From the NCBI GenBank assembly GCA_049322955.1, contig JBMOPU010000012.1, positions 681,517 to 745,516 on the forward strand: a DNA stretch of 64,000 nucleotides. The letters are read 5' to 3'. The stretch's first letter is position 1. Each line of letters opens with the position of its first letter. The translations under genes and the position numbers were made by a program. The DNA is from Patescibacteria group bacterium. Its GTDB lineage: Bacteria; Patescibacteriota; Microgenomatia; UBA10105; UBA927. The notes below the pieces were generated by a model. The model did not search any database and was not told the DNA's origin. It saw only the letters and a program-made list of their open reading frames with translations. Below are positions 1 to 41,900 of the stretch, one piece after another.

Positions 1-283
1 TTCTTTAAAGAACTTAAATGTAGATAATATAAAAATTATATTTCAAACTTACCTTAGTGAATATATTTTTGCTAGCTTATTACAAAAAGCAGGACAAAAA
101 TTAGGAAAAATATCACATAAAGACGCCATAAGAATCGAAAAAAGAATGAAAGGATATATCTCATCTAAAGTTAATTTAGACTTATCGAATATTGACTTCT
201 CAAAGATGGATTGGAATGGTCAATCAGGAAAAGCATTTGTTCAAAGTATTTTTGAAAAAGCATATGAGTTGATGGAGACATAA
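1..283 (+). CDS. 3' end (93 codons) of an upstream gene running off the window start. Its TAA stop overlaps the ATG of the next gene (TAATG). Possibly the partner that precedes QueC-like genes in Qat-type loci.
   Basis: Frame 2 is open from position 2 to the TAA at 281-283. Its composition (A+T-rich, Lys/Ile/Asn-rich) matches the downstream island genes. Translational coupling to 283..1593. Confidence 0.4.
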   Translation, partial: SLKNLNVDNIKIIFQTYLSEYIFASLLQKAGQKLGKISHKDAIRIEKRMKGYISSKVNLDLSNIDFSKMDWNGQSGKAFVQSIFEKAYELMET

Positions 284-1593
284 TGACAGTGAATACAATA
301 CATGTAAAAACAGGTAAGGAAGATATAAAAATAGCATCTGGTTTGGGAAATCGGATTATTGATTTTACTTCTACAAACACGAACCAGACACTAGAAAAAC
401 CCTTATGGTTGAATCGAGATTTTTACAATTTAGAGTATCAACCAGTTCTTGTTGATTTGTTTCGCTTAGCAACCTCTGTTTTTATCATCGACAAAACTAT
501 TCCGAGAATTGAAGCTTACGATCGTTGGACAAGAGATATAGAACTAAACTTGCCCGTAAGTGACCCATCAATGTGGTACGAGAATACGAATTTAATTGTT
601 AGATTTCTTAGTTTTCTCACAGGAGATCATTGGAAGGTACTTTTTACCCAAGATGAATCCACACAACCACAAAAGGATAAGCAATTAACGAAAAAAGGCC
701 ATAAGCTAGACGTAAAATCAGTTTCACTTTTTTCTGGAGGTTTAGATTCCTTCATTGGTGTAATAGATCAAATAGTTGATACCGAATCAGTAGCAATGAT
801 TGCTCACTACGATCAGGGGCAGGTTTCTAAAGTACAAAAATTATTACATGCTAGCTTGGTGAGCCAATTCCCCTCTGCAAAGGTAGAATTATTACAATTT
901 TTTGTTCAGCCTTTAGCAACCAGCGAAAATACCATGAGAAGTAGATCTCTGCTTTTTCTATCTTTAGGAAGCATAGTTGCATCTAGTATAGGTGTCAAAG
1001 AATTAATAGTTCCTGAAAACGGTTTTATAAGTTTAAACGTGCCTTTAACATACAATCGGCTTGGAAGCTTAAGTACCAGAACAACTCATCCAAACACACT
1101 AAATCTCTTTAATAGACTACTCCAAAACTTAAGAATAGGTGTTTTGGTATCCGATCCTTACAAATTTAAGACTAAAGGGGAAATGTTATCAGACTCTAAG
1201 AGCCTTGAGTATTTGGTCAGTGTTGCAAATGAAACGATGTCTTGTGCACATGCGAATGTTGGTATATATCAACATTTACCACCAAATAGACATTGTGGAT
1301 ATTGCTTGCCTTGTTTAATCAGGAGAGCTGCATTTCATAGAGTTGGCCTTGATGACCCAAAGCACTATACCTTTGATGTATTAGATTTAGATTTTTTAGA
1401 ACAAGATAGTAGCAAAACTAGTGACCTTAGGGCTGTTTTACATAGCATTGAAAGTCATAAGACAAATTCAACATTAACAAATATATTGAAGACTGGACCT
1501 ATATTTCCCATAAATGACTTAGAAAATTTTTGTAAGATATACAATATGGGAATCCTGGAATTAGAAAGCTTTTTAAGTGTATATAAAGATTAG
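283..1593 (+). CDS. QueC-like PP-loop ATPase (7-cyano-7-deazaguanine synthase fold) with a roughly 140-aa N-terminal extension. QatC/Cap9/DpdC-like.
   Basis: SGGLDS PP-loop at about aa 150. RSRSLLFLSLGS and PENGFISLNVPL blocks resemble QueC core motifs. The C-terminal CGYCLPCLIRR cysteine cluster resembles the QueC zinc site. Tight coupling to the downstream TatD gene. Confidence 0.75.
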   Translation: MTVNTIHVKTGKEDIKIASGLGNRIIDFTSTNTNQTLEKPLWLNRDFYNLEYQPVLVDLFRLATSVFIIDKTIPRIEAYDRWTRDIELNLPVSDPSMWYENTNLIVRFLSFLTGDHWKVLFTQDESTQPQKDKQLTKKGHKLDVKSVSLFSGGLDSFIGVIDQIVDTESVAMIAHYDQGQVSKVQKLLHASLVSQFPSAKVELLQFFVQPLATSENTMRSRSLLFLSLGSIVASSIGVKELIVPENGFISLNVPLTYNRLGSLSTRTTHPNTLNLFNRLLQNLRIGVLVSDPYKFKTKGEMLSDSKSLEYLVSVANETMSCAHANVGIYQHLPPNRHCGYCLPCLIRRAAFHRVGLDDPKHYTFDVLDLDFLEQDSSKTSDLRAVLHSIESHKTNSTLTNILKTGPIFPINDLENFCKIYNMGILELESFLSVYKD

Positions 1594-1599
1594 TGTATT

Positions 1600-2346
1600 A
1601 TGGATTTTAGTAAACAATTTGATTATATCGACACTCACTGTCACCTAGACTTGTATAAAAACTATACAGAGGTTATTGAACAGTCTAAAATGTCAAACAC
1701 TTCGATTGTTGCGGTAACAAACCTTCCAACAGTGTTTGAGCGAGAATGCAAGCTATTCAAAAACTATTCAAATGTAATTGTCGCATTAGGTTTTCATCCG
1801 CAATTAGTGAAATCTCATGGAGATCAGGTAAGTCAGATGTTAAGCTTTATGTCTAAAACGCAATTTATCGGTGAAATAGGGCTAGATTATCAAGAAAATA
1901 ATGATGACCTAAAAACGAAACAAAAATACATATTCCAACAAATATTGGACGGTGCAGCAACATATAGGACCAAAATACTTTCTGTGCATAGTAGAAAGTC
2001 CTCCGAAGATGTAGTAGCTATGATTGGATCTAATTTCCCCGGAAACATTATTCTTCACTGGTATAGCGGGTCACAATCGACGTTAAAAAAGGCTTTGTCT
2101 AATGGATATTTATTTTCCGTTAATCCAGCTATGACATTTTCAGCTAGTGGAAGATCTATTATTAATGGTTTGCCACTTGAAAAAATTTTAACTGAAACAG
2201 ACGGTCCATTCACGGAGGTGAATAATAAACAAAGTATCCCTTCAGACATAAGTTTGGTTCTGGACTACTTGGCAAAGTTACATAATCAAACAACTCAAAA
2301 TATCAAAGAAATAATTAAAAATAACTTTTTGAATATTTTGAATTAA
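1600..2346 (+). CDS. TatD-family metal-dependent hydrolase/DNase (QatD-like)
   Basis: N-terminal DTHCHLD motif, IGEIGLDYQ, LSVHSR, ILHWYSG, TETDGPF. This is the full TatD metal-ligand set. 6-nt gap after the QueC-like gene. Confidence 0.8.
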   Translation: MDFSKQFDYIDTHCHLDLYKNYTEVIEQSKMSNTSIVAVTNLPTVFERECKLFKNYSNVIVALGFHPQLVKSHGDQVSQMLSFMSKTQFIGEIGLDYQENNDDLKTKQKYIFQQILDGAATYRTKILSVHSRKSSEDVVAMIGSNFPGNIILHWYSGSQSTLKKALSNGYLFSVNPAMTFSASGRSIINGLPLEKILTETDGPFTEVNNKQSIPSDISLVLDYLAKLHNQTTQNIKEIIKNNFLNILN

Positions 2347-2352
2347 ACAGAT

Positions 2353-3069
2353 ATGGCAACTATTTATGGTCAACCCAGCCGATATCTCAATGCGAATAAA
2401 ACCATAAGCAAATACGGTGCATTAGCCTACCTAATTTACTTTACAGTTATCATCGGAATTGTTATTTGGCGCTTATCAATAGCCTCGTTCTCATTGCCTG
2501 CTGTTTTCGCTATCTCACTTGTATTTGGCCCGATATTACTCGTTACAGACTCACTCATGAGAAAAGAGGAGTCACTAATGTATAAGTTCCGCAGTGGCAT
2601 TGTTGGAGAAAAGCTAATCGGCGATGAATTAAAGAAACTATATGCAAGTTATACGGTATTTGAAGATGTTCATGTCCCGGGCAAGAAAGAGAATATTGAT
2701 TTTGTGGTCGTTGGCGCTACAGGAATTCATGCAATCGAGGTTAAAAATCATCATGGAAAGGTGGGTTTTGATGGAGATGCCCTCACCTTAAACGACAAAC
2801 CATTCGAAAAGGACTTTCTAAGACAGGCCATGCGCGAAGCAACCTCTCTCCATGATTATCTTGTGTCGTCGGGGATTTCTAATGCGTTTGTTGTTCCTAT
2901 CATTGTCTTTTCTCATCGCTTTGCTCTAGTTAGATTTGGGATTCAGCCTATTAAAAATGTTCGTGTTATTCAGTATCGCTGGCTCAACAAAATGATAACC
3001 AGCGAACCGAGAAGTTATCCAGATCAAAAAGTGGTTGATCTAATAAAAAATACCTACATTCAGGCCTAG
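2353..3069 (+). CDS. NERD (nuclease-related domain) protein with two N-terminal transmembrane helices
   Basis: NIDFVVVGATGIHAIEVKNHHGKV matches the NERD core (ID-x-vv-x-G-x-x-x-IE-x-K). Hydrophobic helices at aa 20-65. 6-nt gap after TatD. Confidence 0.65.
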   Translation: MATIYGQPSRYLNANKTISKYGALAYLIYFTVIIGIVIWRLSIASFSLPAVFAISLVFGPILLVTDSLMRKEESLMYKFRSGIVGEKLIGDELKKLYASYTVFEDVHVPGKKENIDFVVVGATGIHAIEVKNHHGKVGFDGDALTLNDKPFEKDFLRQAMREATSLHDYLVSSGISNAFVVPIIVFSHRFALVRFGIQPIKNVRVIQYRWLNKMITSEPRSYPDQKVVDLIKNTYIQA

Positions 3070-3109
3070 TGGCCTGTGTAAGCAAGCTTTTTTGTAAAGT
3101 TGCGGTCAG

Positions 3110-3346
3110 ATGTTAGAATATAAATATATGAATAGCGATTCCATGAATTTGAAAGAGAAAAAAGAGTTTGGAGATAAAGCTCGTGTTGCTAGAGAGAAGT
3201 TATCCCTAACTCAAGCAGATGTAGCCAAAAAAGCCAATATGACCGTCAACTACTACGCCATGATAGAGCGCGGTGAAGCTAATCTGTCCTTTGAAAAAAT
3301 GAAGAGTATCGTAAAAGTTCTGAAACTCAAGATCACTATTTCCTAG
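3110..3346 (+). CDS. XRE/Cro-C1-type helix-turn-helix transcriptional regulator
   Basis: LSLTQADVAKKANMTVNYYAMIERGE is a classic HTH_3 signature. Small protein at the operon end. The true start may be an internal Met. Confidence 0.6.
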   Translation: MLEYKYMNSDSMNLKEKKEFGDKARVAREKLSLTQADVAKKANMTVNYYAMIERGEANLSFEKMKSIVKVLKLKITIS

Positions 3347-3605
3347 CATCAAGCACTAGCTTGGCTGATTCTCTCATCATTTCGACCAGTTTTTCAGCCT
3401 CTTCAAATGTCGCTCTCTTGGGATTCGTTTGTTGTAGGCTCTCCAGAGCAGATTTGAACATCTGATCGTGATTTGCAGTATCTATAGCAAATTGCAATGT
3501 CTCTCTTGGTACTGCCTCAAACTTTTCCTTGCCGATAGCGGTAATCTCATCCCACGGCAACGAAACTATACTGCTATTTTTATCCATGAACGTATTATAG
3601 TCCAA
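3336..3605 (-). CDS. Hypothetical 89-aa protein downstream of the PLD-like gene
   Basis: ORF in the low-GC island, co-directional with the PLD-like gene at a 33-nt spacing. No recognisable motif. Confidence 0.35.
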   Translation of the reverse strand: MDYNTFMDKNSSIVSLPWDEITAIGKEKFEAVPRETLQFAIDTANHDQMFKSALESLQQTNPKRATFEEAEKLVEMMRESAKLVLDARK

Positions 3606-3638
3606 GAAGCTTACTAGAGGAAATTGCCTATATTTCCA

Positions 3639-4079
3639 CTACATGTATTTTCCGTACCCAATAAAGTTAAATAAATCTACGGCGAAGCCGCCGTCCTCAA
3701 GACGGCGCATAAATTCTCTACTTTTTGCCTGAGAAAGGATATTTAGGCTTCCTTCCCAGAGTATATTGCGGTCGATAATGGCTAGTTTCCGGTGGTGATT
3801 ACCTGTACAAAGCAGTACTTGGATGCCAATATTCTCAAATTCTTGGATTTCTAGCTCAGACTGCTCATCATAGCCATCTATGTGCGCTCGTGGGTCTCGA
3901 GTGACTATGTAGATTTTGACATCGCGCGCAACCAAGCGTCGAAACACTGGCCAAAAAGTCTTCATTCTAGCTATGGTAATGAATGGACTTTCGATAATTA
4001 CCTCATTCTGACTATTCTCTAAGTCTGTCAGAAATTTGGAGAAGAAGGTTTTCTCGTCGTGCAAAGAGGTTTTAATCAT
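3639..4079 (-). CDS. Small phospholipase-D-family (Nuc-like) nuclease, HxKx4D
   Basis: HHRKLAIID followed by GSLN fits the HxK(x)4D(x)6GSxN PLD motif. GGAGG RBS 6 nt upstream of the ATG on the minus strand. Confidence 0.65.
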   Translation of the reverse strand: MIKTSLHDEKTFFSKFLTDLENSQNEVIIESPFITIARMKTFWPVFRRLVARDVKIYIVTRDPRAHIDGYDEQSELEIQEFENIGIQVLLCTGNHHRKLAIIDRNILWEGSLNILSQAKSREFMRRLEDGGFAVDLFNFIGYGKYM

Positions 4080-4189
4080 GTAAATCCTCCTCCGACTTCG
4101 ATTGATACAGTTCCATTAACCTGGTAAAATGTACTAGGTAATTGTCGGAGAGCGGTTCAAAATAAGAATCGTCCTCCGCACTAGCGAAC

Positions 4190-4657
4190 ATGGCAGAATT
4201 CCCCCACCACGAAATGAGAGGTGATGAGTCTCGCGTAGTACTTCTACAGGCCCTTCGGGCAATGCAACATCGCATCAGCATTCCGCAACTCATCGACGGA
4301 TCAAGGCTTTCTCCACTTATCAAATTGGGGCTCAATAATCTGATTATGTGTGAAGGAGGCAAGTTTAAATCCGTTCGGGCGGTTCAAGAACTTACGGCAC
4401 TGGATGTGCCGACGCTCATGTTGGAGGGTGGAATTTACCATCTCCACAGGGTCATGCGACAAAATGAAAGAAAAATTGTTCGTAATCTGATGCCGCTTGA
4501 CGATGTTGTCGTCATTGGCCCAGAAAGCATTTTTCGTTACGGTGACCCATCAATTCCCGACAGTGGCTATGGGGAAACGCTAAATAGAATTCCTAACCTC
4601 AGAATGGTGGAAGACGTGATTGACGCGGTACGGTATCTTCGGGAAAGGAACGCGTAG
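4190..4657 (+). CDS. Hypothetical protein (uncertain ORF at the island/host junction)
   Basis: 155-aa ORF with intermediate G+C. No motif recognised. The alternative minus-strand reading is shorter. Confidence 0.25.
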   Translation: MAEFPHHEMRGDESRVVLLQALRAMQHRISIPQLIDGSRLSPLIKLGLNNLIMCEGGKFKSVRAVQELTALDVPTLMLEGGIYHLHRVMRQNERKIVRNLMPLDDVVVIGPESIFRYGDPSIPDSGYGETLNRIPNLRMVEDVIDAVRYLRERNA

Positions 4658-6277: not shown

Positions 6278-6350
6278 GGACGATTAGCTCAACGGCTAGA
6301 GCACTTCGTTTACATCGAAGGGGTTGGGGGTTCGAATCCCTCATCGTCCA
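6278..6350 (+). tRNA. tRNA-Val (anticodon TAC)
   Basis: Hand-folded cloverleaf. Acceptor GGACGAT/ATCGTCC, D-stem GCTC/GAGC, anticodon stem CTTCG/CGAAG with loop TTTACAT, T-arm GGGGG-TTCGAAT-CCCTC. Confidence 0.85.
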
Positions 6351-6419
6351 CTGAATTTGCTCTGTGACGCAGTGTGGGTATCAGGGTATAATTCATTGCA
6401 AAGTGGTGTGATCGGTTTT

Positions 6420-6492
6420 GCTGAGGTAGCCAAGGTGGTCACGGCGCCTGTCTGAAAAACAGGTTATGCGTGTTCGACTCACGCCCTCAGCA
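6420..6492 (+). tRNA. tRNA-Phe (anticodon GAA), CCA encoded at 6493-6495
   Basis: Acceptor GCTGAGG/CCTCAGC, anticodon stem CCTGT/ACAGG with loop CTGAAAA, T-arm GCGTG-TTCGACT-CACGC. 3-bp D-stem with a 9-nt loop containing GG. Confidence 0.75.
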
Positions 6493-6540
6493 CCATAGTC
6501 GTCTATCAGGGTCGAATTAGGAAAGCACACGTGCTTTGAG

Positions 6541-6636
6541 TATAATATCGTCGCAAGGGAGTGCGTTATGTGGAGAGCCCTTGCGACACTCTGGTAGAAA
6601 GGGAGGTTGGAAGGGAAACGTCGTTTCCCGTCCATG
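6541..6636 (+). promoter_or_regulatory. tRNA-Gly leader: TATAAT box followed by a conserved two-hairpin leader (copy A of a repeated motif)
   Basis: TATAAT at 6541. Hairpin GTCGCAAGGG...CCCTTGCGAC and hairpin GGGAAAC-GTC-GTTTCCC. About 75% identical to copy B at 6737-6830, with compensatory stem changes. Confidence 0.45.
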
Positions 6637-6639
6637 AAA

Positions 6640-6711
6640 GCGGCGTTAGTTCACCGGTAGAATGTCTCCTTGCCAAGGAGAAGGTAACGGGTTCAATTCC
6701 CGTACGCCGCT
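6640..6711 (+). tRNA. tRNA-Gly (anticodon GCC)
   Basis: Acceptor GCGGCGT/ACGCCGC, anticodon stem TCTCC/GGAGA with loop TTGCCAA, T-arm ACGGG-TTCAATT-CCCGT. Confidence 0.85.
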
Positions 6712-6736
6712 CAGAGAATCACTATCCAAAATAGGT

Positions 6737-6830
6737 TATAATTATGTCGCGAAGGTGTGCTATATGTATGAGCCCTTCGCGACTCTTTGGTAAATAGGAT
6801 CGTTGGGAAGGGAACATCGTTTCCGTCCCA
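6737..6830 (+). promoter_or_regulatory. tRNA-Gln leader: TATAAT box plus conserved two-hairpin leader (copy B)
   Basis: TATAAT at 6737. Hairpin GTCGCGAAGG...CCTTCGCGAC (a compensatory A-T to G-C change relative to copy A). Second hairpin GGGAAC-ATC-GTTTCC. Confidence 0.45.
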
Positions 6831-6836
6831 GAGAGG

Positions 6837-6908
6837 TGCGGGGTCGTTCAACGGTAGGACACCTGCCTTTGGAGCAGGGTATTCTTGGTTCGAATCCAAG
6901 CCCCGCAG
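6837..6908 (+). tRNA. tRNA-Gln (anticodon TTG) with U1:A72 first pair
   Basis: Acceptor TGCGGGG/CCCCGCA, D-stem GTTC/GGAC, anticodon stem CCTGC/GCAGG with loop CTTTGGA, T-arm CTTGG-TTCGAAT-CCAAG, discriminator G. Confidence 0.85.
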
Positions 6909-6914
6909 CTTATA

Positions 6915-11050: not shown

Positions 11051-12394
11051 TCAAACGCCGGAGGCATCCAGTTGCTTTTTAAATGCTTTTGAGCGAAGCA
11101 ACCGGTGGTAGGTTATGGCAAACCGGTGCGCTTCATCGCGTATCCGTTGTACGACCTTTATCGCACGACCCGAAAGCGGCAGGCGAAGGATCGAAAAACC
11201 TTTTTCCTCGGGGATAACCAATTCTTCTTCCCGTTTCGCAAGACCCACGAGCGGTAGCGTGATGCCAAGCTCTGTTAACACGGTTTTGGCCGTTTCCACT
11301 TGCGGTTTGCCGCCGTCAACGATCAGCAAATCAGGAAACGGCCACTCCGTATGAGCAAGTCTTCTCGTGAGGACATCGCGCATCATCGCAACGTCGGAGA
11401 TGCCTTTGACCGAGGTGATCCGAAACTTCCGATACTCTCCTTTTTCCGGTCGGCCGTCGTGCAGGACGGTCATGGAACCCACCGCCTGTTTGCCCATGAG
11501 ATTAGATATATCAAAACATTCGATGCGATGCAGTGTGTGTAACTCGGGAAAGTACCTCTGCATGCGAAGCAGGAGTTCCGAAAGTTCCTCCTGATAGATG
11601 TCGGTTGCCCCCTGATCCAAAAATATCTGCGGGTCATAACGATATGCCGATATGCCGTTTAAAAATTGCAATCGATCCTTTATGACGCCGGCTTTTTCAA
11701 AAGCCAGCGCATCGGCATACGCGCGCATTTCCTTTTCGTATTCTTTCACCAACCAGGCGGTTTTCCCCTGAAACAGGGCATTTAAGCGAAACATATTTGA
11801 ACGATACCGGTGTATTGCCTGTTCACGGGCTTTTCCTTCCAGTGTGATGATGATGCCGGGACAAGGATCGCATAACCCAAGATGGGTATAAAAACATGCT
11901 TTCCCCCTGCGTTCCTTTTGCGTGCAGTACGGAACGATACTCCGTAACTGCCGGAGGAGCCCGCGTAAAGCATATCCCGATTGGAACGGACCGTAGATGG
12001 CATTTTTGGCCGAATGCTCATAAAACTGTAGCTCTCCTTTTCGCACTAAAAGGAGCCTAGGTAATTCCTCAGAAAGGGTGATGACGACATACAGATAGCT
12101 TTTGTCATCACGTGACACTACGTTGTATTTCGGCATATACTGCCGAATGAGTTTTGCTTCCAGGAGCAGTGCATCAAATTCGCTGGTCGTAGGGATTGTT
12201 TCAATGGAGTTGATTTCCGCAACAAGTCGTACGGTTTTTTCACCGACGGCATCCTCGCGCTGAAAATACTGCCTGACCCTGCGGGACAAATCGACGGCCT
12301 TGCCGACGTAGATAACTGTCTTTTCCGCATTCCGGTAGATGTACACTCCCGGTTCTTTGGGGAGTACTGCTAATGTTTCTTTGAGGTTTTCCAT
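11051..12394 (-). CDS. uvrC: Excinuclease ABC subunit C (short form, lacking the C-terminal HhH region)
   Basis: N-terminal GIY-YIG (PGVYIYRNAEKTVIYVGKAVDLSRRVRQYF). UvrB-interacting and RNase-H-like middle regions. 447 aa. Start overlaps the upstream gene by 25 nt. Confidence 0.8.
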   Translation of the reverse strand: MENLKETLAVLPKEPGVYIYRNAEKTVIYVGKAVDLSRRVRQYFQREDAVGEKTVRLVAEINSIETIPTTSEFDALLLEAKLIRQYMPKYNVVSRDDKSYLYVVITLSEELPRLLLVRKGELQFYEHSAKNAIYGPFQSGYALRGLLRQLRSIVPYCTQKERRGKACFYTHLGLCDPCPGIIITLEGKAREQAIHRYRSNMFRLNALFQGKTAWLVKEYEKEMRAYADALAFEKAGVIKDRLQFLNGISAYRYDPQIFLDQGATDIYQEELSELLLRMQRYFPELHTLHRIECFDISNLMGKQAVGSMTVLHDGRPEKGEYRKFRITSVKGISDVAMMRDVLTRRLAHTEWPFPDLLIVDGGKPQVETAKTVLTELGITLPLVGLAKREEELVIPEEKGFSILRLPLSGRAIKVVQRIRDEAHRFAITYHRLLRSKAFKKQLDASGV

Positions 12395-14184
12395 AGGAAT
12401 AGTTGTAGGAGTTTTATCCCGATACCGATTGCCGAAAGAAGCGTCAGTGCCCCGAGTACGACAAGCCAGTACAGCGGTTGGATGCGAAAGCTTTGGGTTA
12501 AGGTGACGTCATTGACCCGCGCACGAATCTGACCGGGTTTTGCGGTAACCGTCTGATCAAACGTGCCGGCAATGGGAATGCGAACCACCGCATAAGGGAG
12601 GAGCTCACCGATAACTTCCGTTACCTTTATGGCATCGGGCTCGGACACCGCACTGACGGCAATATTGTATGCTGATTCTCCTCCTTTGTTGGTGATGACA
12701 ATCGCGCCCGATGCCTTGGTGCCGGCTCCTACCTGACTCGGAAACTCGATAACGGTTGAAACATCCGCACCTTTATCCTGGGCAGATTCAGCAAACTCAA
12801 CGCTGATATCCCTTCCCGAACTGTCCGCGGTTCGATAGTAACCGGCAGGATACGGTGTTGCGCTGTCGATACCGTTAATGGCAAAGACGATATGGTTAAA
12901 GTCGAGTTTGGTAAAGTAATCAACTCCCCCGGTTGTGTTTGCCCAGGTCGGATCAACGGGTACCCATAATTTGAGCGTGCTGTCGTAGTACTCGGGCCAT
13001 GCATGCAAGACGTCGGTGATCAGTGAGAGGGGTCGGAGCTTCGGATTATTCGTATAGGCATAGCCGACCACTCTTCGTGCCGGTATGCCGGCGGCACGGG
13101 CAATCGCGATAAATAAGTCGGTAAATTCCATACACACCGCCTGCGACGGATTTTTACTTGCTTCCAGAGCTCCCAGGCGCGTTGTCGGAGCGTTTACTTT
13201 GTCATAATTGTACGAAAGCGCCGTTGAGACGTAGGAATAGATCAACTCCGGCGTGTTGTAACGTGCGGCAAGACTCTGAATGGAGGTGTCTTTCACCTGC
13301 CAATACGCCGCCTCTTTGGTATAGAGCGCGGGATCGGGAGGCGTTGTCGCAAAATCTTTCCGTGCGGAAAGAAACACCGATATCGAAAGCACCGCGGTTA
13401 CTTTAAGGGTCTGTCGCGGCGCTACACTATACCTGCCGAGCCAATTACCGTCGGGATCCGACGTCACCGTCACCGGGGAAGGCGTTAACGATTGGATGGT
13501 GACCTTTTGGAATGCGGTACTCGGCGGCAAGGCAATTTCCTGTAGCTCCGCAGTGACCCCGGGATTGCTGAGCGAATAGGTAAGCGTCAGATCAAAATTT
13601 TGAGTGGCGCCGTATGCGGCCGCGATGCCTCCCTTGATCATCTGTTCTTTGTTCCACGACTTGCCGTTGGCAGGTTGTGGGGAAAGGTAGGCCGCGGGGC
13701 CGAACGTCGGAGGTACCGCAACGGTGACATCATAAGCGCCGATGTCGGGATCATTGAGTACACCCGGTACGTACAACTCCCAAATACTTCCGTTTTTTGT
13801 CGCAATCCCCGCATGTTCATAGCGCAATGAAAACGGCAACGATTTTCCCAATCCGATGGCGCGGACATTAAACCGAAGTGAAATATGCGTCTTTCCTTCT
13901 TTTACCGAGATCGCCGGGGTAATAATGCCGCCGTCATCATAGGCGATGATATTGCTTATTTTGTCGCTGTCCAAAACCAATGAATATTCCTGCGGATAAA
14001 AATTCGGGAGCTTGTTGGTAAGGGTCACCTGTTGGGTGACGATGGTTTTCCCCGTGGGTGAAATCGCGTATTGTACGTCATAATCGGCCTGAAATTCACC
14101 GGTGGCATATGCTTTAGGAGTGATTGTGACTATTCCGAAAAGAAGGAAGAGCAGGCAAAAAAGTCGTCCGGCGAAGACACGCAT
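12370..14184 (-). CDS. Exported transglutaminase-like cysteine protease-domain protein with C-terminal TM anchor
   Basis: Signal peptide. CMEFTDLFIAIARAAGIPARRVVGYAY ... HAWPEYYD is the transglutaminase-like Cys-His-Asp core. C-terminal hydrophobic helix. Confidence 0.7.
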   Translation of the reverse strand: MRVFAGRLFCLLFLLFGIVTITPKAYATGEFQADYDVQYAISPTGKTIVTQQVTLTNKLPNFYPQEYSLVLDSDKISNIIAYDDGGIITPAISVKEGKTHISLRFNVRAIGLGKSLPFSLRYEHAGIATKNGSIWELYVPGVLNDPDIGAYDVTVAVPPTFGPAAYLSPQPANGKSWNKEQMIKGGIAAAYGATQNFDLTLTYSLSNPGVTAELQEIALPPSTAFQKVTIQSLTPSPVTVTSDPDGNWLGRYSVAPRQTLKVTAVLSISVFLSARKDFATTPPDPALYTKEAAYWQVKDTSIQSLAARYNTPELIYSYVSTALSYNYDKVNAPTTRLGALEASKNPSQAVCMEFTDLFIAIARAAGIPARRVVGYAYTNNPKLRPLSLITDVLHAWPEYYDSTLKLWVPVDPTWANTTGGVDYFTKLDFNHIVFAINGIDSATPYPAGYYRTADSSGRDISVEFAESAQDKGADVSTVIEFPSQVGAGTKASGAIVITNKGGESAYNIAVSAVSEPDAIKVTEVIGELLPYAVVRIPIAGTFDQTVTAKPGQIRARVNDVTLTQSFRIQPLYWLVVLGALTLLSAIGIGIKLLQLFLWKTSKKH

Positions 14185-14188
14185 ACGT

Positions 14189-17128
14189 CTATAGTACCCT
14201 TTTTAGAAATTGACCGGTATACGATAAACGGTTTGCGGCAATTTCTTTAGGAGTTCCTTGTGCGATGATATCGCCTCCCTTGGATCCCCCTTCAGGACCT
14301 AAATCGATAATCCAATCGGCACTGCGGATAACATCAAGATTATGCTCGATGACCACGACGGTATTACCGAGAGCAACCAGTCGGTGCAAAACCGCAAGGA
14401 GTTTTTCAAGGTCGGCAAAGTGCAGACCCGTGGTCGGCTCATCCAGGATATACAGCGTTCTTCCGGTTGACCGTCGGGAAAGCTCGCTTGAAAGCTTAAC
14501 CCGCTGAGCCTCTCCGCCTGATAGAGTTGTCGCAGGTTGCCCCAAATGCATATAGGACAGACCGACATCGGCAATGGTGGTCAGTTTAGACAGCACCTGC
14601 GGGTGCGCATGGAAAAATTCGATAGCTTCCGTAATACTCATGTTGAGCACGTCCGCTATTGATTTGCCGCGATACGTCACCTCGAGCGTTTCATTGTTAT
14701 AGCGCTTGCCGCCACATACTTCGCAGGTTACATACACGTCCGCCATAAACTGCATTTCGATCTTTCGTTGTCCTTCGCCTTCACACACCTCACACCGACC
14801 CCCCTTGACGTTAAAGGAGAATCGTCCGCTTTTATATCCGCGGAGACGCGATTCGGATAGGTTGGCATAGATATCGCGAACAAAACTGAAAATACCCGTA
14901 TACGTCGCGGGGTTGCTTCGCGGAGTTCGCCCGATCGGCGATTGGTCGATGAGTACCACTTTGTCGATTGCATCGATACCGGTTACCGATGCAAACGTTC
15001 CGGGGCGTTCTTTGGAAAACGGATTATAGTGCCGCATAAGCGCGGGATAGAACGTCTCGACGACAAGGGAAGATTTTCCGCTTCCCGATACTCCGGTGAC
15101 ACAGACGAATTTACCGAGCGGAATAGAGAGATCCACGCCTTTTAAGTTGTTATGCGTCACGTTGGTCATGGTGATAAAACGCGGGGTAAGATCGGTCTGT
15201 GGGCTTTTCGTAACCGTTATGTGCTTTCTCCCTGAGAGATAACCCCCGGTGACTGACTTTTTCGACTCTTTGATTTCGGCAAGCGTTCCCTGTGCTACCA
15301 CGGTGCCGCCGAATTTTCCCGCGCCAGGGCCGAAGTCCACTATATAATCCCCCGCTTCTATCATCTCGCGATCATGTTCGACGACGATGACGGAGTTCCC
15401 CAGATCACGAAGCGATACCAGCGTTTTGACGAGCCGATGATTATCCCGTGGGTGCAATCCGATGGACGGTTCATCCAAAACGTACAATACCCCGGTCAAG
15501 CCGGAGCCTATTTGTGACGCTAATCTGATCCGCTGTGCCTCGCCGCCCGCCAGTGTCGTTGCGCCTCGCGAAAGTGAGAGGTATTCGAGTCCGACACTGA
15601 GGAGAAACCCCAACCTCGCCAACACTTCCTTGAGAATCGGTCCCGCGATACGTGCCTCCGTTTGCGACAGGACGGCATTTTCCGTTTTGGCGATTGATTG
15701 TGTCCATGCGTACGCGTCGGTAATGCTCATATCCGTCACATCGGCAATGGAGTGCTTATCAATGGTGATGGTGAGACTTTCTTTCTTGAGCCGTTTTCCC
15801 TGACACGCACTACACACTTCCGTACGCATATATTTCTCGATTTCCGTTCGGAGAAAATCGGATTCCGATTCGGCATGTCGCTTCATGAGCTCGGGAATAA
15901 ATCCCGAAAACGTTTCATTAATGGCCGTTTCTTCACCAAAACGGTTTTTCCCTTTGACATGATGAATCTCATCTCCCGTGCCGTAAAGCAATATGTCCCG
16001 CTGTTTTTTGGTGAAGGTCTTAAGCGGCAGTCGTATGTTCATACCGTGTTTCTCGGCAACCGCTGTCACGACGCGTGAATACCAGGTATCGTGAAAAAAT
16101 GTCTTGGCAAACGGCAACACCCCGCCCTCGGTTATGGAAAGATCCAAATTGAGAACGAGCTCCGGGTCAACCGTCAGGATGGATCCGATGCCGGTACAGG
16201 TGGGACACGCGCCGTGCGGTGAATTGAACGAAAATGACCGCGGTTCGATTTCTGGTAACGAGATATTACAAACCGGACAACTGAATTTTTCGGAAAAAAT
16301 ATGATCATGAACCGAACTGGGCTTATCGGGAAGCGAAAAACTTTTGTCATGAATTTCTCCCGCTATGACCAATCCCTCTGCAAGATTTAACGACTGTTCG
16401 ACGGCTTCGGTAAGCCGTGATCGAATGGTACTGACAAAGGCGGGCTTGAGGCTTTGTTTATCGATACTGAATTTATCGATAACGACATCAATAGAATGTT
16501 TGTTGGTTTTCAAAAGCGTGATGTCGCTATCAAGCTCAATAAACTTTCCGTCCACGCGCATCATTCGGAATCCTTTTGCTTTTACGTTATCAAAAAGCCC
16601 GGTGAATTCACCCTTGCGATCTCGTACGATGGGAGCCAAAATGACCAGTCGATAACTTCGGGCGGTGCCGCTCAGGCTGTTTTGGGCCATGGCAAGGATC
16701 GCATTCACAATCTGATCACCCGACATTTTGGAAATTTCCCTGCCGCAGTTCGGGCAATGCGGATGTCCGACACGGGCAAACAGCAAACGCAGGTAATCAT
16801 AAATTTCGGTGACGGTTCCGACCGTGGAGCGGGGGTTATGGGATGTGGATTTCTGGTCGATAGAAATCGCGGGCGACAACCCTTCTATCGTGTCCACATC
16901 GGGTTTGTCCATGACGCCAAGGAATTGTCTGGCGTATGAGGAAAGTGATTCCACATATCGCCGTTGCCCTTCCGCATAGATGGTATCAAATGCCAGGCTT
17001 GACTTCCCGGAGCCGGAAAGGCCGGTAAAAACAACAAGTTTATTTTTGGGAAGCTCCAGGTGCACGTTTTTCAAATTGTGCTGTCTGGCGCCTTTAATGA
17101 TAATGTTTTCCATAAAGCAAACGACCAC
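14189..17128 (-). CDS. uvrA: Excinuclease ABC subunit A
   Basis: Two ABC ATPase modules with Walker A GLSGSGKSSL and GVSGSGKSSL, LSGGE signature motifs and zinc-finger cysteines. 979 aa. Confidence 0.95.
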   Translation of the reverse strand: MVVCFMENIIIKGARQHNLKNVHLELPKNKLVVFTGLSGSGKSSLAFDTIYAEGQRRYVESLSSYARQFLGVMDKPDVDTIEGLSPAISIDQKSTSHNPRSTVGTVTEIYDYLRLLFARVGHPHCPNCGREISKMSGDQIVNAILAMAQNSLSGTARSYRLVILAPIVRDRKGEFTGLFDNVKAKGFRMMRVDGKFIELDSDITLLKTNKHSIDVVIDKFSIDKQSLKPAFVSTIRSRLTEAVEQSLNLAEGLVIAGEIHDKSFSLPDKPSSVHDHIFSEKFSCPVCNISLPEIEPRSFSFNSPHGACPTCTGIGSILTVDPELVLNLDLSITEGGVLPFAKTFFHDTWYSRVVTAVAEKHGMNIRLPLKTFTKKQRDILLYGTGDEIHHVKGKNRFGEETAINETFSGFIPELMKRHAESESDFLRTEIEKYMRTEVCSACQGKRLKKESLTITIDKHSIADVTDMSITDAYAWTQSIAKTENAVLSQTEARIAGPILKEVLARLGFLLSVGLEYLSLSRGATTLAGGEAQRIRLASQIGSGLTGVLYVLDEPSIGLHPRDNHRLVKTLVSLRDLGNSVIVVEHDREMIEAGDYIVDFGPGAGKFGGTVVAQGTLAEIKESKKSVTGGYLSGRKHITVTKSPQTDLTPRFITMTNVTHNNLKGVDLSIPLGKFVCVTGVSGSGKSSLVVETFYPALMRHYNPFSKERPGTFASVTGIDAIDKVVLIDQSPIGRTPRSNPATYTGIFSFVRDIYANLSESRLRGYKSGRFSFNVKGGRCEVCEGEGQRKIEMQFMADVYVTCEVCGGKRYNNETLEVTYRGKSIADVLNMSITEAIEFFHAHPQVLSKLTTIADVGLSYMHLGQPATTLSGGEAQRVKLSSELSRRSTGRTLYILDEPTTGLHFADLEKLLAVLHRLVALGNTVVVIEHNLDVIRSADWIIDLGPEGGSKGGDIIAQGTPKEIAANRLSYTGQFLKRVL

Positions 17129-17162
17129 CGATATCCCGTGGCTTGGGTATTATACCAGGCTA

Positions 17163-19190
17163 CTATGCAGTTTCGGAAAGCTCTGCGATGAGATCACGAA
17201 AACGAGCCGCCGTTTCGAAATCCAGATCCCTGCTCGCTTTGCGCATGAGTTTTGTATAGGTCGCTATTTTCTTTTTCTTATCGGCGGGGGTCATGGCGTC
17301 TTTTTCCTCCCGGGAGAGCGTTGCCGATTCATTCACCATTACGGCATCTTCCTTTTGTACGAGCCGTTCGCGAATGGGCTTCGAGATTGAGAGCGGGGTG
17401 ATATTGTGCGTTGCATTGTACGCAAGTTGTATCGTGCGACGCCTCTCGACTTCGCTCATTGCCGCCGCCATGGATTTGGTGACGGTATCGGCGTACAAAA
17501 TGACTCGGCCGTGCACATGTCGGGCCGCCCGCCCCATGGTTTGGATAAGACTCGTGCGACTGCGCAAAAATCCTTCTTTATCCGCATCAAGGACTGCTAC
17601 CAATGATACCTCAGGAAGATCAAGTCCTTCCCGCAGTAAATTGATTCCCACGACCACATCATACTTGCCCGCCCGGAGGTCAGCCAGGATATCGCTCCGT
17701 TCAAGGGTTAAGACGTCCGCATGCAGATAATGCACTTTTATGCCCCGTTCCTCCAGGAATTTCGCCAAATCTTCCGCCATGCGTTTGGTGAGCGTCGTGA
17801 CGAGCACCCGCTCATGTTTTTCGATTCGTTTATTGATCTCTCCCATCAAGTCTTCAATCTGTCCCTGACTTTTCCTTACTTCAATCTCAGGATCAACCAG
17901 CCCTGTCGGTCGGATGAGTTGTTCGACGATTGCCGTTTTCCCCGTTTGCGTCGTTACCCTATGGGTTTCCCACTCATCGGGAGTTGCGGACACATAGATA
18001 GTCTGCGGCATGCGCCGTTCGAACTCATCAAATTTGAGCGGACGGTTATCGATGGCGGCGGGAAGCCGGAAACCGTAATCGATAAGCGTTTGTTTTCTGC
18101 TTCGGTCACCCTGATACATACCGCGGATCTGCGGAATGGTCATATGAGATTCGTCGATTAAAAGAAGCCAGTCATTTTCGGGAGCGTTTCTCCGGACACT
18201 CGCTTCCTTAAAGTAATCAAGCAAAGAATACGGCGCTTCACCCGGCTTTCTGCCGTCGAAGTATCGGCTATAGTTTTCGATACCGTTCACGAATCCCACT
18301 TCCTGAATCATTTCAAGGTCGTAGGTGACGCGTTCTTTGATGCGTTGTGCTTCGATAAACTTATTCGCTTTGCGGAATGCCGCCACCTGTCGGTCAAGGT
18401 CATCTTGAATTTGGGCGAAAACGGATTTGTAGCTTTTCGGATCCGTCATATAGTGTTTGGCAGGATATACGACCAGTGCCGGCAAATCTTCAATCTTTTT
18501 CCCGGTTAACGGATCGCGTCGGTCAATGCTCAGAACGCCCTTTTCTCCCATGACGATACGGATACCCGTATCCTCATATGCCGGAAACACATCGATCGTT
18601 TCGCCGCGCACCCTGAATGCGCCGCGATGAAATCCGTAATCGTTCCGTTCGTACTGCAAATCGATGAGTCGCTCCATGATGCTTTCGCGGGTGACGGCGA
18701 CTCCCGGCTGTAATTCCAGTACAAAGTGACCGTATTCCTTGGGAGAGCCGATGTTGTAAATACACGAAACGGATGCCACCACGATCGTGTCGTTTCTGGT
18801 CAATAAATTGGTAGTTGCGGCAAGACGAAGCTTGTCGATTTCCTCATTTATCTCGGTTTCCTTTTCTATATAGGTATTGGTGGACGGAATATACGCTTCC
18901 GGCTGATAGTAATCGTAGTAGGAAACAAAATAGGAAACCGCGTTGTCGGGGAAAAAATCCCGGAATTCCTGATACAGCTGGGCGGCCAACGTTTTATTGT
19001 GCGAGATGATAAGCGTCGGTTTTTGGATCTTTTCTATCACTTTCGCCATCGTGTAGGTTTTGCCGCTTCCCGTCACTCCCAGAAGTATCTGTTCGGGAAC
19101 GTCGTTTTTCAGATTATCCAGCAATGCGGCAATTGCCTTCGGTTGATCGCCGGTCGGTTGAAATGCTGAGGTAAGGGTAAATTGCTTCAT
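17163..19190 (-). CDS. uvrB: Excinuclease ABC subunit B
   Basis: GVTGSGKT Walker A, helicase motifs and a C-terminal UVR domain. 675 aa. Confidence 0.95.
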   Translation of the reverse strand: MKQFTLTSAFQPTGDQPKAIAALLDNLKNDVPEQILLGVTGSGKTYTMAKVIEKIQKPTLIISHNKTLAAQLYQEFRDFFPDNAVSYFVSYYDYYQPEAYIPSTNTYIEKETEINEEIDKLRLAATTNLLTRNDTIVVASVSCIYNIGSPKEYGHFVLELQPGVAVTRESIMERLIDLQYERNDYGFHRGAFRVRGETIDVFPAYEDTGIRIVMGEKGVLSIDRRDPLTGKKIEDLPALVVYPAKHYMTDPKSYKSVFAQIQDDLDRQVAAFRKANKFIEAQRIKERVTYDLEMIQEVGFVNGIENYSRYFDGRKPGEAPYSLLDYFKEASVRRNAPENDWLLLIDESHMTIPQIRGMYQGDRSRKQTLIDYGFRLPAAIDNRPLKFDEFERRMPQTIYVSATPDEWETHRVTTQTGKTAIVEQLIRPTGLVDPEIEVRKSQGQIEDLMGEINKRIEKHERVLVTTLTKRMAEDLAKFLEERGIKVHYLHADVLTLERSDILADLRAGKYDVVVGINLLREGLDLPEVSLVAVLDADKEGFLRSRTSLIQTMGRAARHVHGRVILYADTVTKSMAAAMSEVERRRTIQLAYNATHNITPLSISKPIRERLVQKEDAVMVNESATLSREEKDAMTPADKKKKIATYTKLMRKASRDLDFETAARFRDLIAELSETA

Positions 19191-37121: not shown

Positions 37122-38237
37122 TTATTTTACTACTTCCTCCCACGGGAAACCAGCACGCCCGAAGTGTCCGTAGCGTGCCGTTTTAGCATAGATTGGACGG
37201 CGTAGTTTAAGCCCCGAAAGTATTCCAGGTACCGACATGTCAAGGAGCTTCCACGCAAACGCTTCGATGTCGGCAAGCGATTTCTTCTCGGTGCCGAAGG
37301 TTTCAATCGCTTTCCCCAACGGCTCACGTTGACCGATGACATACGCCACCCGTACTTCCACCCGATCGGCAAGACCGTGGGCAACGATGTTTTTCGCGAT
37401 AAAGCGTGCGGCATAGGCACCGCTTCGATCCACTTTCGTCGGATCCTTGCCGGAAAACGCGCCGCCGCCATGCCGGGAAAATCCGCCGTAGGTGTCGACG
37501 ATGATCTTTCTTCCCGTCACCCCGGTGTCGGAAGCGGGGCCGCCTATTTCCCACTTTCCCTTGCTCCCGTTCACGATGACATCGTCAAGGGAAGGCGGAC
37601 TCAGCTTGTATTTTTTCACGACGGGCTTTACCACTTTCTCGTACAATTTCTTTTTGAGTTCCGCATTGGTGATTTTCGGGTCATGGGGAACGGCCAGCAC
37701 GATCCGTTCAACCGCCACCGGCTTGTTGTTTTCATACCGCACCTTTACCTCGCTTTTGCCGTCGGGACGAAGGAACGGAAGTATTTTTTCCTCGCGTGCT
37801 TCATCCATCTTTTCAACGAGCCGATGTGACAACACCAGCGGAAGCGGCATGTATTCGGGCGTTTCATTGGTCGCGTAGCCGAACATCATCCCCTGATCGC
37901 CCGCTCCTCCTTCATCCACGCCGCCCGCGATATCGGGCGATTGCTCATGGATATAGACAGATATCGGCGACTTATACCAAAAACCGAACGCTTTGTTGGT
38001 GTATCCCAGGCTCTTTATTGTTTTTCGGGCTATTTTTTCGTAATCGAGTTTTTTCGTACAGGTTACCTCGCCCGCCAGCACGATTCGGTCGGTCGTGACT
38101 AACGTTTCCACCGCCACCCGTGCTTTGGGATCAACGGCGAGTGCGGCATCCACAATCGCATCCGATACCTGATCACAGATTTTGTCGGGATGACCGGACG
38201 CAACGGATTCCGAGGTAAAGTGGGTCGTTGTTTTCAT
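37122..38237 (-). CDS. metK: S-adenosylmethionine synthetase (start at internal Met, 371 aa)
   Basis: ESVASGHPDKICDQVSDAI N-terminus, GGGAFSGKDPTKVDRS P-loop region. GGAAAGG RBS upstream of the ATG at 38237. Confidence 0.9.
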   Translation of the reverse strand: MKTTTHFTSESVASGHPDKICDQVSDAIVDAALAVDPKARVAVETLVTTDRIVLAGEVTCTKKLDYEKIARKTIKSLGYTNKAFGFWYKSPISVYIHEQSPDIAGGVDEGGAGDQGMMFGYATNETPEYMPLPLVLSHRLVEKMDEAREEKILPFLRPDGKSEVKVRYENNKPVAVERIVLAVPHDPKITNAELKKKLYEKVVKPVVKKYKLSPPSLDDVIVNGSKGKWEIGGPASDTGVTGRKIIVDTYGGFSRHGGGAFSGKDPTKVDRSGAYAARFIAKNIVAHGLADRVEVRVAYVIGQREPLGKAIETFGTEKKSLADIEAFAWKLLDMSVPGILSGLKLRRPIYAKTARYGHFGRAGFPWEEVVK

Positions 38238-38264
38238 AACTCGCCTTTCCTGCCAAATGAAGTG

Positions 38265-38420
38265 AAACAAAATACCCCGCCAAGCGGGGTGAAGTTTTTC
38301 CCTACTGTTTGGCAAATCATTCCTCGCGAAGCGAGGACTCGTTGGGGCACCGCAGGTACATTTCCTCGGTTGCCGGATGGTTCACAGAGCGAGATCTCTC
38401 CCCACCACTCTTGATTTATT
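38265..38420 (-). ncRNA. SAM-I (S-box) riboswitch with intrinsic terminator in the metK 5' leader
   Basis: The leader reads AUCAAGAGUGGUGGGGAGAGA...CCGGCAACC...GGUGCcccAAcgagUCC...GAAUGAUUU. This matches the SAM-I P1/P2/P3/P4 conserved blocks. It is followed by the CCCCGC-UUGG-GCGGGG hairpin plus UAUUUUGUUU. Confidence 0.75.
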
Positions 38421-39038: not shown

Positions 39039-39039
39039 A

Positions 39040-41891: not shown

Positions 41892-41900
41892 ATCTCTAGC

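What the first reader, a model, noticed from the sequence alone, without database searches (positions are those of the whole stretch)
283..1593. QueC-like enzyme with a roughly 140-aa N-terminal extension and retained zinc cysteine cluster
In housekeeping QueC the SGGxDS PP-loop sits within the first 15 residues. Here it begins near residue 150, after an extra N-terminal domain with no obvious motif. The C-terminal CGYCLPCLIRR cluster is retained, as are the QueC core blocks (RSRSLLFLSLGS, PENGFISLNVPL). No queD/queE/queF genes are adjacent. This pattern matches the non-queuosine QueC-like proteins of defence systems (QatC, Cap9, DpdC), which are thought to adenylate or modify a protein or nucleic-acid substrate rather than make preQ0. 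The TAATG overlap with the upstream ORF implies stoichiometric co-expression with an unseen partner.
Basis: partly seen in the sequence, partly recalled or inferred. Interest (0 to 1): 0.6.

Follow-up and report, generated by a model that had tools for sequence, protein, structure and literature searches.

The report
Ordinary QatC of QatABCD phage defence
This gene is a textbook, already-annotated QatC, the QueC-like enzyme of the four-gene QatABCD anti-phage system, sitting on a low-GC mobile island in a Patescibacteria genome, and its "extra" N-terminal domain is a published hallmark of that family rather than something new.

Summary
It is QatC. It scores 398.8 bits against the NCBIfam equivalog NF041925 (cut-off 280). 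It aligns over residues 53-432 to two solved QatC structures. The AlphaFold model (pLDDT 90.6) superposes on crystal QatC along its whole length (TM 0.83/0.85), whereas QueC and Cap9 cover only the core.

The exact sequence is already in NCBI as MFZ5535241.1, [quoted passage not shown]. The "unseen partner" is QatB. An identical contig supplies the missing upstream part: QatA (KAP NTPase), then a 285-aa QatB that begins MGTS, the N-terminal motif shown to be essential. QatD (TatD nuclease) follows QatC.

All experimentally validated QatC residues and all nine published family motifs are present, including two inside the N-terminal extension. The three canonical QueC motifs are absent. That extension matches nothing but QatC in the PDB, Pfam or viral structures, and it was not found outside the QatC architecture.

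Verdict: already known, low interest. The only mild novelty is the host lineage.

The parts
2..283 (+). C-terminal 93 residues of QatB, cut by the window start. The full gene is 285 aa in the identical contig L001 (7727-8584) and begins MGTSKSY.
   Evidence: NCBIfam NF041924 QatB, profile positions 91-179 of 179, E 7.5e-12. Full-length QatB in L001 scores 109.2 bits against a cut-off of 100 and PADLOC QatB 1.6e-41. L001 equals window 1-4181 with 0 mismatches.
283..1593 (+). qatC, the QueC-like PP-loop enzyme (436 aa). This is the finding itself.
   Evidence: NF041925 QatC equivalog 398.8 bits against a cut-off of 280. PADLOC QatC 2.3e-106. PDB QatC 9vlk_A 1.5e-59 and 9zee_B 1.2e-56. Exact sequence is NCBI MFZ5535241.1, annotated QatC.
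283..717 (+). QatC N-terminal extension (residues 1 to about 145), called 'Var1' or 'N-terminal extension' in the papers. It is a four-stranded parallel sheet flanked by helices. Conserved motifs are D70-x4-R75-x6-W82-x-R84 (nt 490-534) and D115-x-W117-xxx-F121 (nt 625-645).
   Evidence: Model strands E4-9, E24-27, E85-92 and E116-123. Alone it matches only QatC in the PDB (E 1e-7, TMq 0.67-0.70). Invariant residues, motifs.
733..750 (+). PP-loop S151-G-G-L-D155-S156, the ATP pyrophosphate-binding site.
   Evidence: Aligns to S156/D160/S161 of crystal QatC. The S156A/S161A mutant abolishes defence (PMC13279940).
1036..1092 (+). Long Var3 loop N252-H269-P270, including T265-R-T267. This is the QatC-specific Thr pair that replaces the Tyr/Asp deazaguanine-binding pair of QueC and Cap9.
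   Evidence: Residue mapping, TRTTHP motif. T278/T280 are essential in P. aeruginosa QatC.
1243..1314 (+). Zinc site C321, C338, C341 and C344 (C-x16-CGxCxxC-xx-RR).
   Evidence: Maps to C334/C354/C357/C360 of 9zee_B and to C332/C352/C355/C358 of 9vlk_A.
1363..1590 (+). QatC C-terminal helical extension (residues 361-436). In homologs this is the main QatB-docking surface.
   Evidence: Model helices H377-394, H397-402 and H410-430. Whole-length TM 0.83/0.85 to 9y01_B. The sequence is poorly conserved: 24-25% identity to the PDB QatCs.
1600..2346 (+). qatD, a TatD-family nuclease (248 aa) with the HxH motif at H13-C-H15.
   Evidence: NF041926 QatD equivalog 253.7 bits against a cut-off of 230. 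Pfam TatD_DNase 2.7e-51. HCH found.

Best explanation
The gene is qatC, the third gene of a complete, canonical qatABCD anti-phage operon. qatA and most of qatB lie just off the left edge of the window. The operon sits on a low-GC horizontally acquired island in a Patescibacteria genome.

Mechanism, by homology to the E. coli and P. aeruginosa systems:
1. QatC binds QatB 1:1.
2. QatB loses Met1, and its disordered N-terminal tail threads Gly2 into the QatC active site.
3. QatC uses ATP at its PP-loop to adenylate a carboxylate first substrate.
4. QatC then ligates that substrate to the alpha-amine of QatB Gly2.

[quoted passage not shown] Modified QatB is thought to control the defence output together with the QatD nuclease, which binds the QatB tail, and the QatA KAP NTPase.

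The N-terminal extension is an integral, family-specific domain required for defence. Its own role is still undefined.

Shown here: family membership, operon composition, conservation of every validated residue, and the fold. Shown in homologs by others: the complex, ATP binding, essentiality of the residues and of both extensions, and an NDG-modified QatB peptide. Inferred: that this copy is active, the identity of the first substrate, and all steps downstream of QatB modification.
For: Family: QatC and QatD both score above NCBIfam equivalog cut-offs, and PADLOC finds QatA, QatB, QatC and QatD. The exact protein is annotated QatC in NCBI.

Operon: L001 is identical to window 1-4181 and shows KAP_NTPase, QatB, QatC and TatD in tight succession. 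The same order holds in relatives at 98, 54 and 50% identity.

Residues: S151/D155/S156, H175, R221, F225, P244, K298, T265/T267 and C321/C338/C341/C344 all match the residues defined in the crystal structures. All nine published QatC motifs are present and the three QueC-specific motifs are absent.

Fold: the model has pLDDT 90.6 and TM 0.83/0.85 to QatC in the QatB-QatC complex.

QatB begins MGTSKSY. Compare the conserved MGTS motif and the NDG-modified GTSKAY peptide in E. coli.

Literature on mechanism: PMC13279940, PMC13376578, PMC13639016, PMC13329287 and PMC13434339.
Against: No group has reconstituted QatC catalysis in vitro. CDG was never seen in the crystals and did not stimulate ATP pyrophosphatase activity.

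The Thr-x-Thr substitution, conserved here, argues that the substrate may differ from CDG. The NDG peptide was detected only at low level, by one group.

At this locus QatA scores below its equivalog cut-off (496 against 600 bits), although it aligns full-length.

The P. aeruginosa QatC basic patch R407/R410/R414 aligns to S391/T394/S396 here, in a poorly conserved region.

Activity of this copy is untested. Whether this roughly 1-Mb genome can make CDG is unknown.
Confidence: 0.93

Rival explanations
1. It is QatC, but its first substrate is not 7-carboxy-7-deazaguanine. It ligates a different carboxylate, possibly phage-derived or infection-dependent, to QatB Gly2, so substrate availability acts as the infection signal.
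For: The invariant T265/T267 replace the Tyr/Asp pair that reads the deazaguanine in QueC and Cap9. No CDG-dependent activity or CDG density was seen in three studies. The Bae group explicitly proposes an uncharacterised, possibly phage-linked substrate. The host is a reduced Patescibacteria genome whose CDG supply is unverified.
Against: LC-MS/MS identified an NDG-modified GTSKAY N-terminal peptide of E. coli QatB. QatB here has a nearly identical N-terminus, GTSKSY.
Confidence: 0.3
2. It is a housekeeping QueC (preQ0 synthase) that merely carries an N-terminal fusion domain.
For: The Pfam QueC model matches residues 285-354 (32.5 bits). The PP-loop and Cys4 zinc site are retained.
Against: The TIGR00364 QueC equivalog scores 25.7 bits against a cut-off of 150.3. 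The QueC motifs YxQxHxxE, VPxRN and YPDC are absent. QueC structures cover only a third of the model (TMq 0.33-0.34). No queD or queE lies nearby. E. coli QatC does not complement a queC deletion (PMC13329287).
Confidence: 0.01
3. It is a Cap9-type enzyme of a type IV CBASS system that deazaguanylates a CD-NTase.
For: It shares the QueC-like fold and the logic of modifying a protein N-terminus.
Against: No CD-NTase or Cap10/TGT gene is in the neighbourhood. Cap9 is about 185 aa without extensions and keeps the QueC catalytic motifs that are absent here. Cap9 9nto_B gives TMq 0.30 and E 3.6e-3, against 1e-28 for QatC.
Confidence: 0.01
4. It is a decaying, non-functional remnant carried on a mobile island.
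For: The syn:nonsyn codon changes against the 98% copy are 9:10 for qatC and 4:8 for qatD. That is a rough dN/dS of about 0.35 and 0.6 by my own estimate from very few changes. The sister copy in L002 carries G247S at an otherwise invariant glycine.
Against: All four genes are intact and tightly spaced. The window copy keeps all 49 invariant columns of the family alignment and every validated residue. Counts this small at 1.5% divergence are not informative.
Confidence: 0.04

Closest known systems
QatC of E. coli NCTC9009 and P. aeruginosa qatABCD (PDB 9vlk/9vll, 9zee/9zef, 9y01/9y02; PMC13279940, PMC13376578, PMC13639016)
   Same: It has the same three-part architecture: N-extension, QueC-like PP-loop core with the long Var3 loop, and a C-terminal helical extension. 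It has the same PP-loop, adenine-stacking Phe, Lys, Thr-x-Thr pair and Cys4 zinc site. It sits in the same operon position between an MGTS-QatB and a TatD-type QatD. Whole-length TM is 0.83/0.85.
   Different: Identity is only 33-37% in the N-extension, 41-44% in the core and 24-25% in the C-extension. The protein is about 30 aa shorter. The spacer in D-x4-R-x(6)-W-x-R is one residue shorter, and the first and second zinc cysteines are 16 rather than 19 residues apart. The P. aeruginosa basic-patch residues that contact QatB are not conserved. The host is Patescibacteria rather than Pseudomonadota.
Cap9 of type IV CBASS (PDB 9nto)
   Same: It has the QueC-like PP-loop core and a proposed ATP-dependent ligation onto the N-terminal glycine of a partner protein that threads a disordered tail into the active site.
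   Different: Cap9 is a minimal protein of about 185 aa with no N- or C-extension. It keeps the QueC Tyr/Asp substrate pair and pairs with a CD-NTase and Cap10. None of this applies here.
Canonical QueC, 7-cyano-7-deazaguanine synthase (PDB 3bl5, 2pg3; TIGR00364)
   Same: It shares the Rossmann-like PP-loop fold, the SGGxDS motif and a Cys4 zinc site.
   Different: In QueC the PP-loop is at the N-terminus. QueC has the YxQxHxxE, VPxRN and YPDC motifs and is linked to queD/queE. Here the PP-loop starts at residue 151, those motifs are absent, and the equivalog score is far below cut-off.

Membership tests
QatC (Qat anti-phage system QueC-like protein) | Full-length match to the curated equivalog profile above its cut-off | tested here: met
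   NF041925 scores 398.8 bits against a cut-off of 280, profile positions 6-398 of 398 on residues 50-431. PADLOC QatC 2.3e-106.
QatC (Qat anti-phage system QueC-like protein) | Intact SGGxDS PP-loop and ATP-binding residues (His, Arg, Phe, Pro, Lys) | tested here: met
   S151, G152, G153, D155, S156, H175, R221, F225, P244 and K298 align to the crystal-defined residues.
QatC (Qat anti-phage system QueC-like protein) | Invariant Thr-x-Thr replacing the Tyr/Asp nucleobase-binding pair of QueC and Cap9, on a long Var3 loop | tested here: met
   T265-R-T267-T-H269-P270 lies within the loop N252-H269. The residues are invariant in 37 homologs.
QatC (Qat anti-phage system QueC-like protein) | Cys4 zinc site of the form C(x)nCGxCxxC..RR | tested here: met
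   C321, C338, C341, C344, R347 and R348 are present. The spacer is 16 residues against 19 in E. coli.
QatC (Qat anti-phage system QueC-like protein) | N-terminal extension of about 145-150 aa with the motifs D(x)4R(x)7WxR and DxW/YxxxF and the conserved D63 equivalent | tested here: met
   D58 is present. DKTIPRIEAYDRWTR starts at residue 70, with a spacer of 6 rather than 7. DHWKVLF starts at residue 115. The domain model matches only QatC in the PDB.
QatC (Qat anti-phage system QueC-like protein) | C-terminal helical extension that docks QatB | tested here: inconclusive
   The helices are present and the whole-chain TM is 0.83/0.85. However, the P. aeruginosa basic patch R407/R410/R414 aligns to S, T and S, and the region is variable family-wide. 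No complex prediction could be run.
QatABCD system | Operon of KAP NTPase QatA, QatB, QatC and TatD nuclease QatD | tested here: met
   L001 is identical to the window over 4181 bp. QatA scores 496 bits, below the 600 cut-off but full-length, and PADLOC gives 1.2e-126. QatB scores 109 bits against 100. QatD scores 253.7 bits against 230.
QatABCD system | QatB with a long disordered N-terminal tail starting MGTS | tested here: met
   QatB begins MGTSKSYSGPSGKNPLIPDW. The profile-matched helical domain starts at residue 98. The motif and its essentiality are described. Disorder of the tail is inferred from its composition and was not predicted here.
QatABCD system | Confers phage resistance, with the QatB N-terminus modified in a QatC-dependent way | not testable with these tools
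   This needs plaque assays and LC-MS/MS of the QatB N-terminal peptide.
Canonical QueC (preQ0 synthase) | TIGR00364 equivalog score, the YxQxHxxE, VPxRN and YPDC motifs, and queD/queE linkage | tested here: not met
   The score is 25.7 bits against a cut-off of 150.3. The motifs are absent. No que genes appear among the neighbours or the 36 scanned window ORFs.
Cap9 (type IV CBASS) | Minimal QueC core of about 185 aa that retains the QueC catalytic motifs, next to a CD-NTase and Cap10 | tested here: not met
   The protein is 436 aa with extensions, the motifs are absent, and there is no CD-NTase or TGT neighbour. TMq to 9nto_B is 0.30.

The most novel reading that the evidence does not exclude
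The host is a Patescibacteria MAG with a 990,597-bp contig. From my own knowledge, not tested here, this group generally lacks most de novo cofactor and nucleotide biosynthesis. If this genome, and the clade of QatC relatives at 45-65% identity, lack folE/queD/queE, then a fully intact QatABCD would be operating without a host supply of 7-carboxy-7-deazaguanine. That would imply the first substrate of QatC is something else, or is delivered by the phage or the host bacterium. It would turn an open biochemical question into a comparative-genomics test.
Probability: 0.1. Interest if true: 0.55.

Novelty: already known. Interest (0 to 1): 0.1.

Why it matters
It matters little as a discovery. The gene family, its N-terminal extension, its partner and its likely chemistry were described in 2020-2026, and this exact protein is already named QatC in NCBI. 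It has modest value in three ways. It documents a complete QatABCD on a mobile, low-GC island in Patescibacteria, a phylum that the one published QatD survey read here does not name. It shows that the N-extension motifs are as strictly conserved in this distant lineage as the catalytic core. And it offers a minimal-genome host in which the unresolved question of QatC's first substrate could be approached by checking for CDG biosynthesis genes.

Tried and rejected

2. Does the N-extension occur in other architectures? A profile search of 1.84 billion representatives gave 3,124 hits. Of the 139 newly retrieved top hits, all 73 of at least 400 aa carry the PP-loop. The 66 shorter ones look like truncated QatC fragments, with the PP-loop near residue 150 when they are long enough and ends that fall inside QatC blocks. 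Weaker hits were not inspected.

3. Are NERD, HTH and PLD part of the system? No. They accompany only the 98% copies and not the 54% or 50% relatives, and NERD has a different divergence.

4. The GTDB genome scan returned only relatives at 34-38% identity, so the organism was identified instead by an exact-sequence look-up.

5. No paper in the library mentions QatABCD together with Patescibacteria.

6. The housekeeping QueC, Cap9 and pseudogene readings were rejected, as set out under rival explanations.

Full report
**Observation.** The ORF at 283..1593 (+, ATG, 436 aa) exists as described.
- SGGLDS occupies residues 151-156.
- Four cysteines (C321, C338, C341, C344) lie in CAHANVGIYQHLPPNRHCGYCLPCLIRR.
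- RSRSLLF and PENG are at residues 219 and 244.
- The upstream ORF's TAA (281-283) shares one base with the ATG.

The only inaccurate element is "no obvious motif" in the N-terminal part (see the N-terminal extension below).

**Identity.**
- NCBIfam's curated equivalog NF041925 (QatC) scores 398.8 bits against a cut-off of 280 and covers profile positions 6-398 on residues 50-431. The N-terminal extension is therefore part of the family model.
- PADLOC QatC gives 2.3e-106.
- Pfam QueC matches only residues 285-354.
- The QueC equivalog TIGR00364 scores 25.7 bits against a cut-off of 150.3.
- Two distinct solved QatC sequences match from residue 53-55 to 432. They are 9vlk_A at 1.5e-59 and 9zee_B at 1.2e-56.
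- An exact-sequence look-up shows the protein is NCBI MFZ5535241.1, [quoted passage not shown], on a 990,597-bp contig. The window's UvrB is MFZ5535258.1 of the same MAG.

**Operon.**
- The downstream ORF 1600..2346 is QatD. NF041926 scores 253.7 bits against 230, Pfam TatD_DNase gives 2.7e-51, and the HxH motif is at residues 13-15.
- The truncated upstream ORF 2..283 is the C-terminus of QatB.
- A Logan contig, L001, carries the identical QatC and matches window 1-4181 with no mismatch.
- L001 adds QatA, a 610-aa KAP NTPase. PADLOC QatA gives 1.2e-126. NF041923 scores 496 bits, below the 600 cut-off but aligned full-length.
- L001 also adds a 285-aa QatB, at 109.2 bits against 100, beginning MGTSKSYSGPSGKNPLIPDW.
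- The genes are tightly packed: a 2-nt gap between A and B, a 1-nt overlap between B and C, and a 6-nt gap between C and D.
- The A-B-C-D order recurs in relatives at 98%, 54% and 50% identity, each set among other defence genes.

**Residue-level test against experiment.** I mapped the printed alignments onto the residues named in the structural papers.
- PP-loop: S151, D155, S156.
- Adenine readers: H175, R221, F225.
- P244 and K298.
- The QatC-specific pair T265/T267 on the long loop N252-H269.
- The zinc ligands C321, C338, C341, C344.

All are conserved.

All nine motifs that PMC13329287 lists for the QatC cluster are present, and the QueC motifs YxQxHxxE, VPxRN and YPDC are absent. Small differences are a 6-residue rather than 7-residue spacer in D-x4-R-x(n)-W-x-R and a 16-residue rather than 19-residue spacer before the CGxC.

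The P. aeruginosa basic patch that contacts QatB (R407, R410, R414) aligns to S, T and S. That region is variable across the family.

**Structure.** An AlphaFold2 model built from 37 homologs has pLDDT 90.6 and pTM 0.92.
- Foldseek against the PDB ranks QatC in the QatB-QatC complex first. 9y01_B and 9y02_B give E of about 1e-28 and TM 0.83/0.85 over the whole chain.
- QueC (2pg3, 3bl5; TMq 0.33-0.34) and Cap9 (9nto_B; TMq 0.30) cover only the core.

**The N-terminal extension.** The papers describe it as a four-stranded parallel sheet with flanking helices that is strictly required for defence and has no assigned function.
- The model here has the same elements.
- In a 37-sequence alignment, D70, R75, D80, W82, R84, V92, G114, D115 and W117 are invariant. 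Sixteen of 95 columns in residues 50-144 are at least 90% conserved, against 61 of 216 in the core.
- Modelled alone (pLDDT 87.4), it matches only QatC in the PDB. It matches nothing in Pfam and nothing in the viral structure library.
- A profile of the extension finds 3,124 representatives. Every full-length hit inspected has the PP-loop, and the short hits look like fragments.

**Mechanism (from homologs).**
- QatB and QatC form a 1:1 complex that is sufficient for defence against some phages.
- ATP binds the PP-loop, and the S156A/S161A and T278/T280 mutants lose defence.
- QatB loses Met1 and its Gly2 enters the active site. G2D and tail deletions abolish defence.
- One group detected an NDG-modified GTSKAY peptide by LC-MS/MS.
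- No group reconstituted catalysis, and CDG neither bound nor stimulated ATP hydrolysis.
- QatD is a 3'-5' exonuclease and AP endonuclease that is inhibited by NTPs, and it binds the QatB tail.
- QatA binds DNA.
- E. coli QatC does not complement a queC deletion.

For this locus all of this is inference by homology. The chemistry of the first substrate is the main open step.

**Context.**
- The Qat genes have 33-39% GC against about 50% for the rest of the window.
- T4SS-like genes lie upstream in L001 and L002.
- A cluster of four tRNA genes lies at 6278-6909.
- The remaining ORFs examined are housekeeping genes. They include uvrABC, glycolysis and gluconeogenesis genes, metK by its sequence, and transporters. 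None is a queuosine-pathway gene.
- A published survey of 631 QatD sequences lists Pseudomonadota (91.7%), Bacillota (6.8%) and a few other phyla, and does not name Patescibacteria.

**Verdict.** This is an ordinary, already annotated member of a well-described family. Interest is low.

Noticed in passing
window 2353..3069 (+), 3110..3346 (+), 3336..3605 (-), 3639..4079 (-): Directly after qatD (6-nt gap) comes a NERD-domain protein, whose N-terminal third looks hydrophobic. It is followed by an HTH_3 regulator, a small unknown ORF and a PLDc_2 nuclease-like protein similar to MkoC/DrmC. These accompany only the 98%-identical Qat copies and not the 54% or 50% relatives. They could be a separate small defence module.
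   Followed up: partly
window 2353..3069 versus L002 12071..12787: The NERD gene is only 89.0% identical at the nucleotide level between the two island copies (61 synonymous and 11 nonsynonymous codon changes). qatA to qatD are 96.6-98.6% identical. This suggests a recombination breakpoint right after qatD.
   Followed up: partly
window 1..4200; L001 1..12482: The island is compositionally foreign. The Qat genes have 33-39% GC and the upstream T4SS-like cluster 40-43%, against about 50% for the genome. The T4SS-like cluster comprises TrbC/T4SS pilin x2, a PrgI-like gene, a TraC-like gene, a VirB4-like ATPase and an M23 peptidase. The Logan contig ends at window position 4181, at the GC transition. 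No integrase or att repeats were looked for.
   Followed up: no
L002 10001..11311 (QatC residue 247): The sister copy (P0001, 98% identical) has Ser at G247 of the PENG motif. This glycine is invariant in the 37-sequence alignment. It may be a weakened allele or a sequencing error.
   Followed up: no
L001 5892..7724: QatA of this lineage aligns full-length to NF041923 but scores 496 bits, below the 600-bit equivalog cut-off. This is a divergent QatA that automated annotation may leave unnamed.
   Followed up: no
window 6278..6909 (+); also 55326..55399 (-) and 62972..63043 (+): There is a cluster of four tRNA genes (Val-TAC, Phe-GAA, Gly-GCC, Gln-TTG) about 2 kb beyond the island edge, plus two further tRNAs elsewhere. 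It could be an integration hotspot. This was not examined.
   Followed up: no
window 38000..40000: A second GC dip (41.5%) holds three small minus-strand ORFs at 38500..38814, 38805..39038 and 39040..39306. The last is DUF3467 and the other two have no Pfam match. They lie between a SAM-synthetase-like gene and a DinB/ImpB-family polymerase. It may be a small acquired cassette.
   Followed up: partly
window 41046..43529 (-): A leucine-rich-repeat protein (281 aa) sits next to a 542-aa protein with an N-terminal prepilin-type methylation motif. This could be a pilus-associated surface pair.
   Followed up: no
window 11051..19190 (-): uvrC, a transglutaminase-core protein, uvrA and uvrB are arranged in one co-directional block. 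The transglutaminase gene inserted between uvrC and uvrA is unusual but was not pursued.
   Followed up: no
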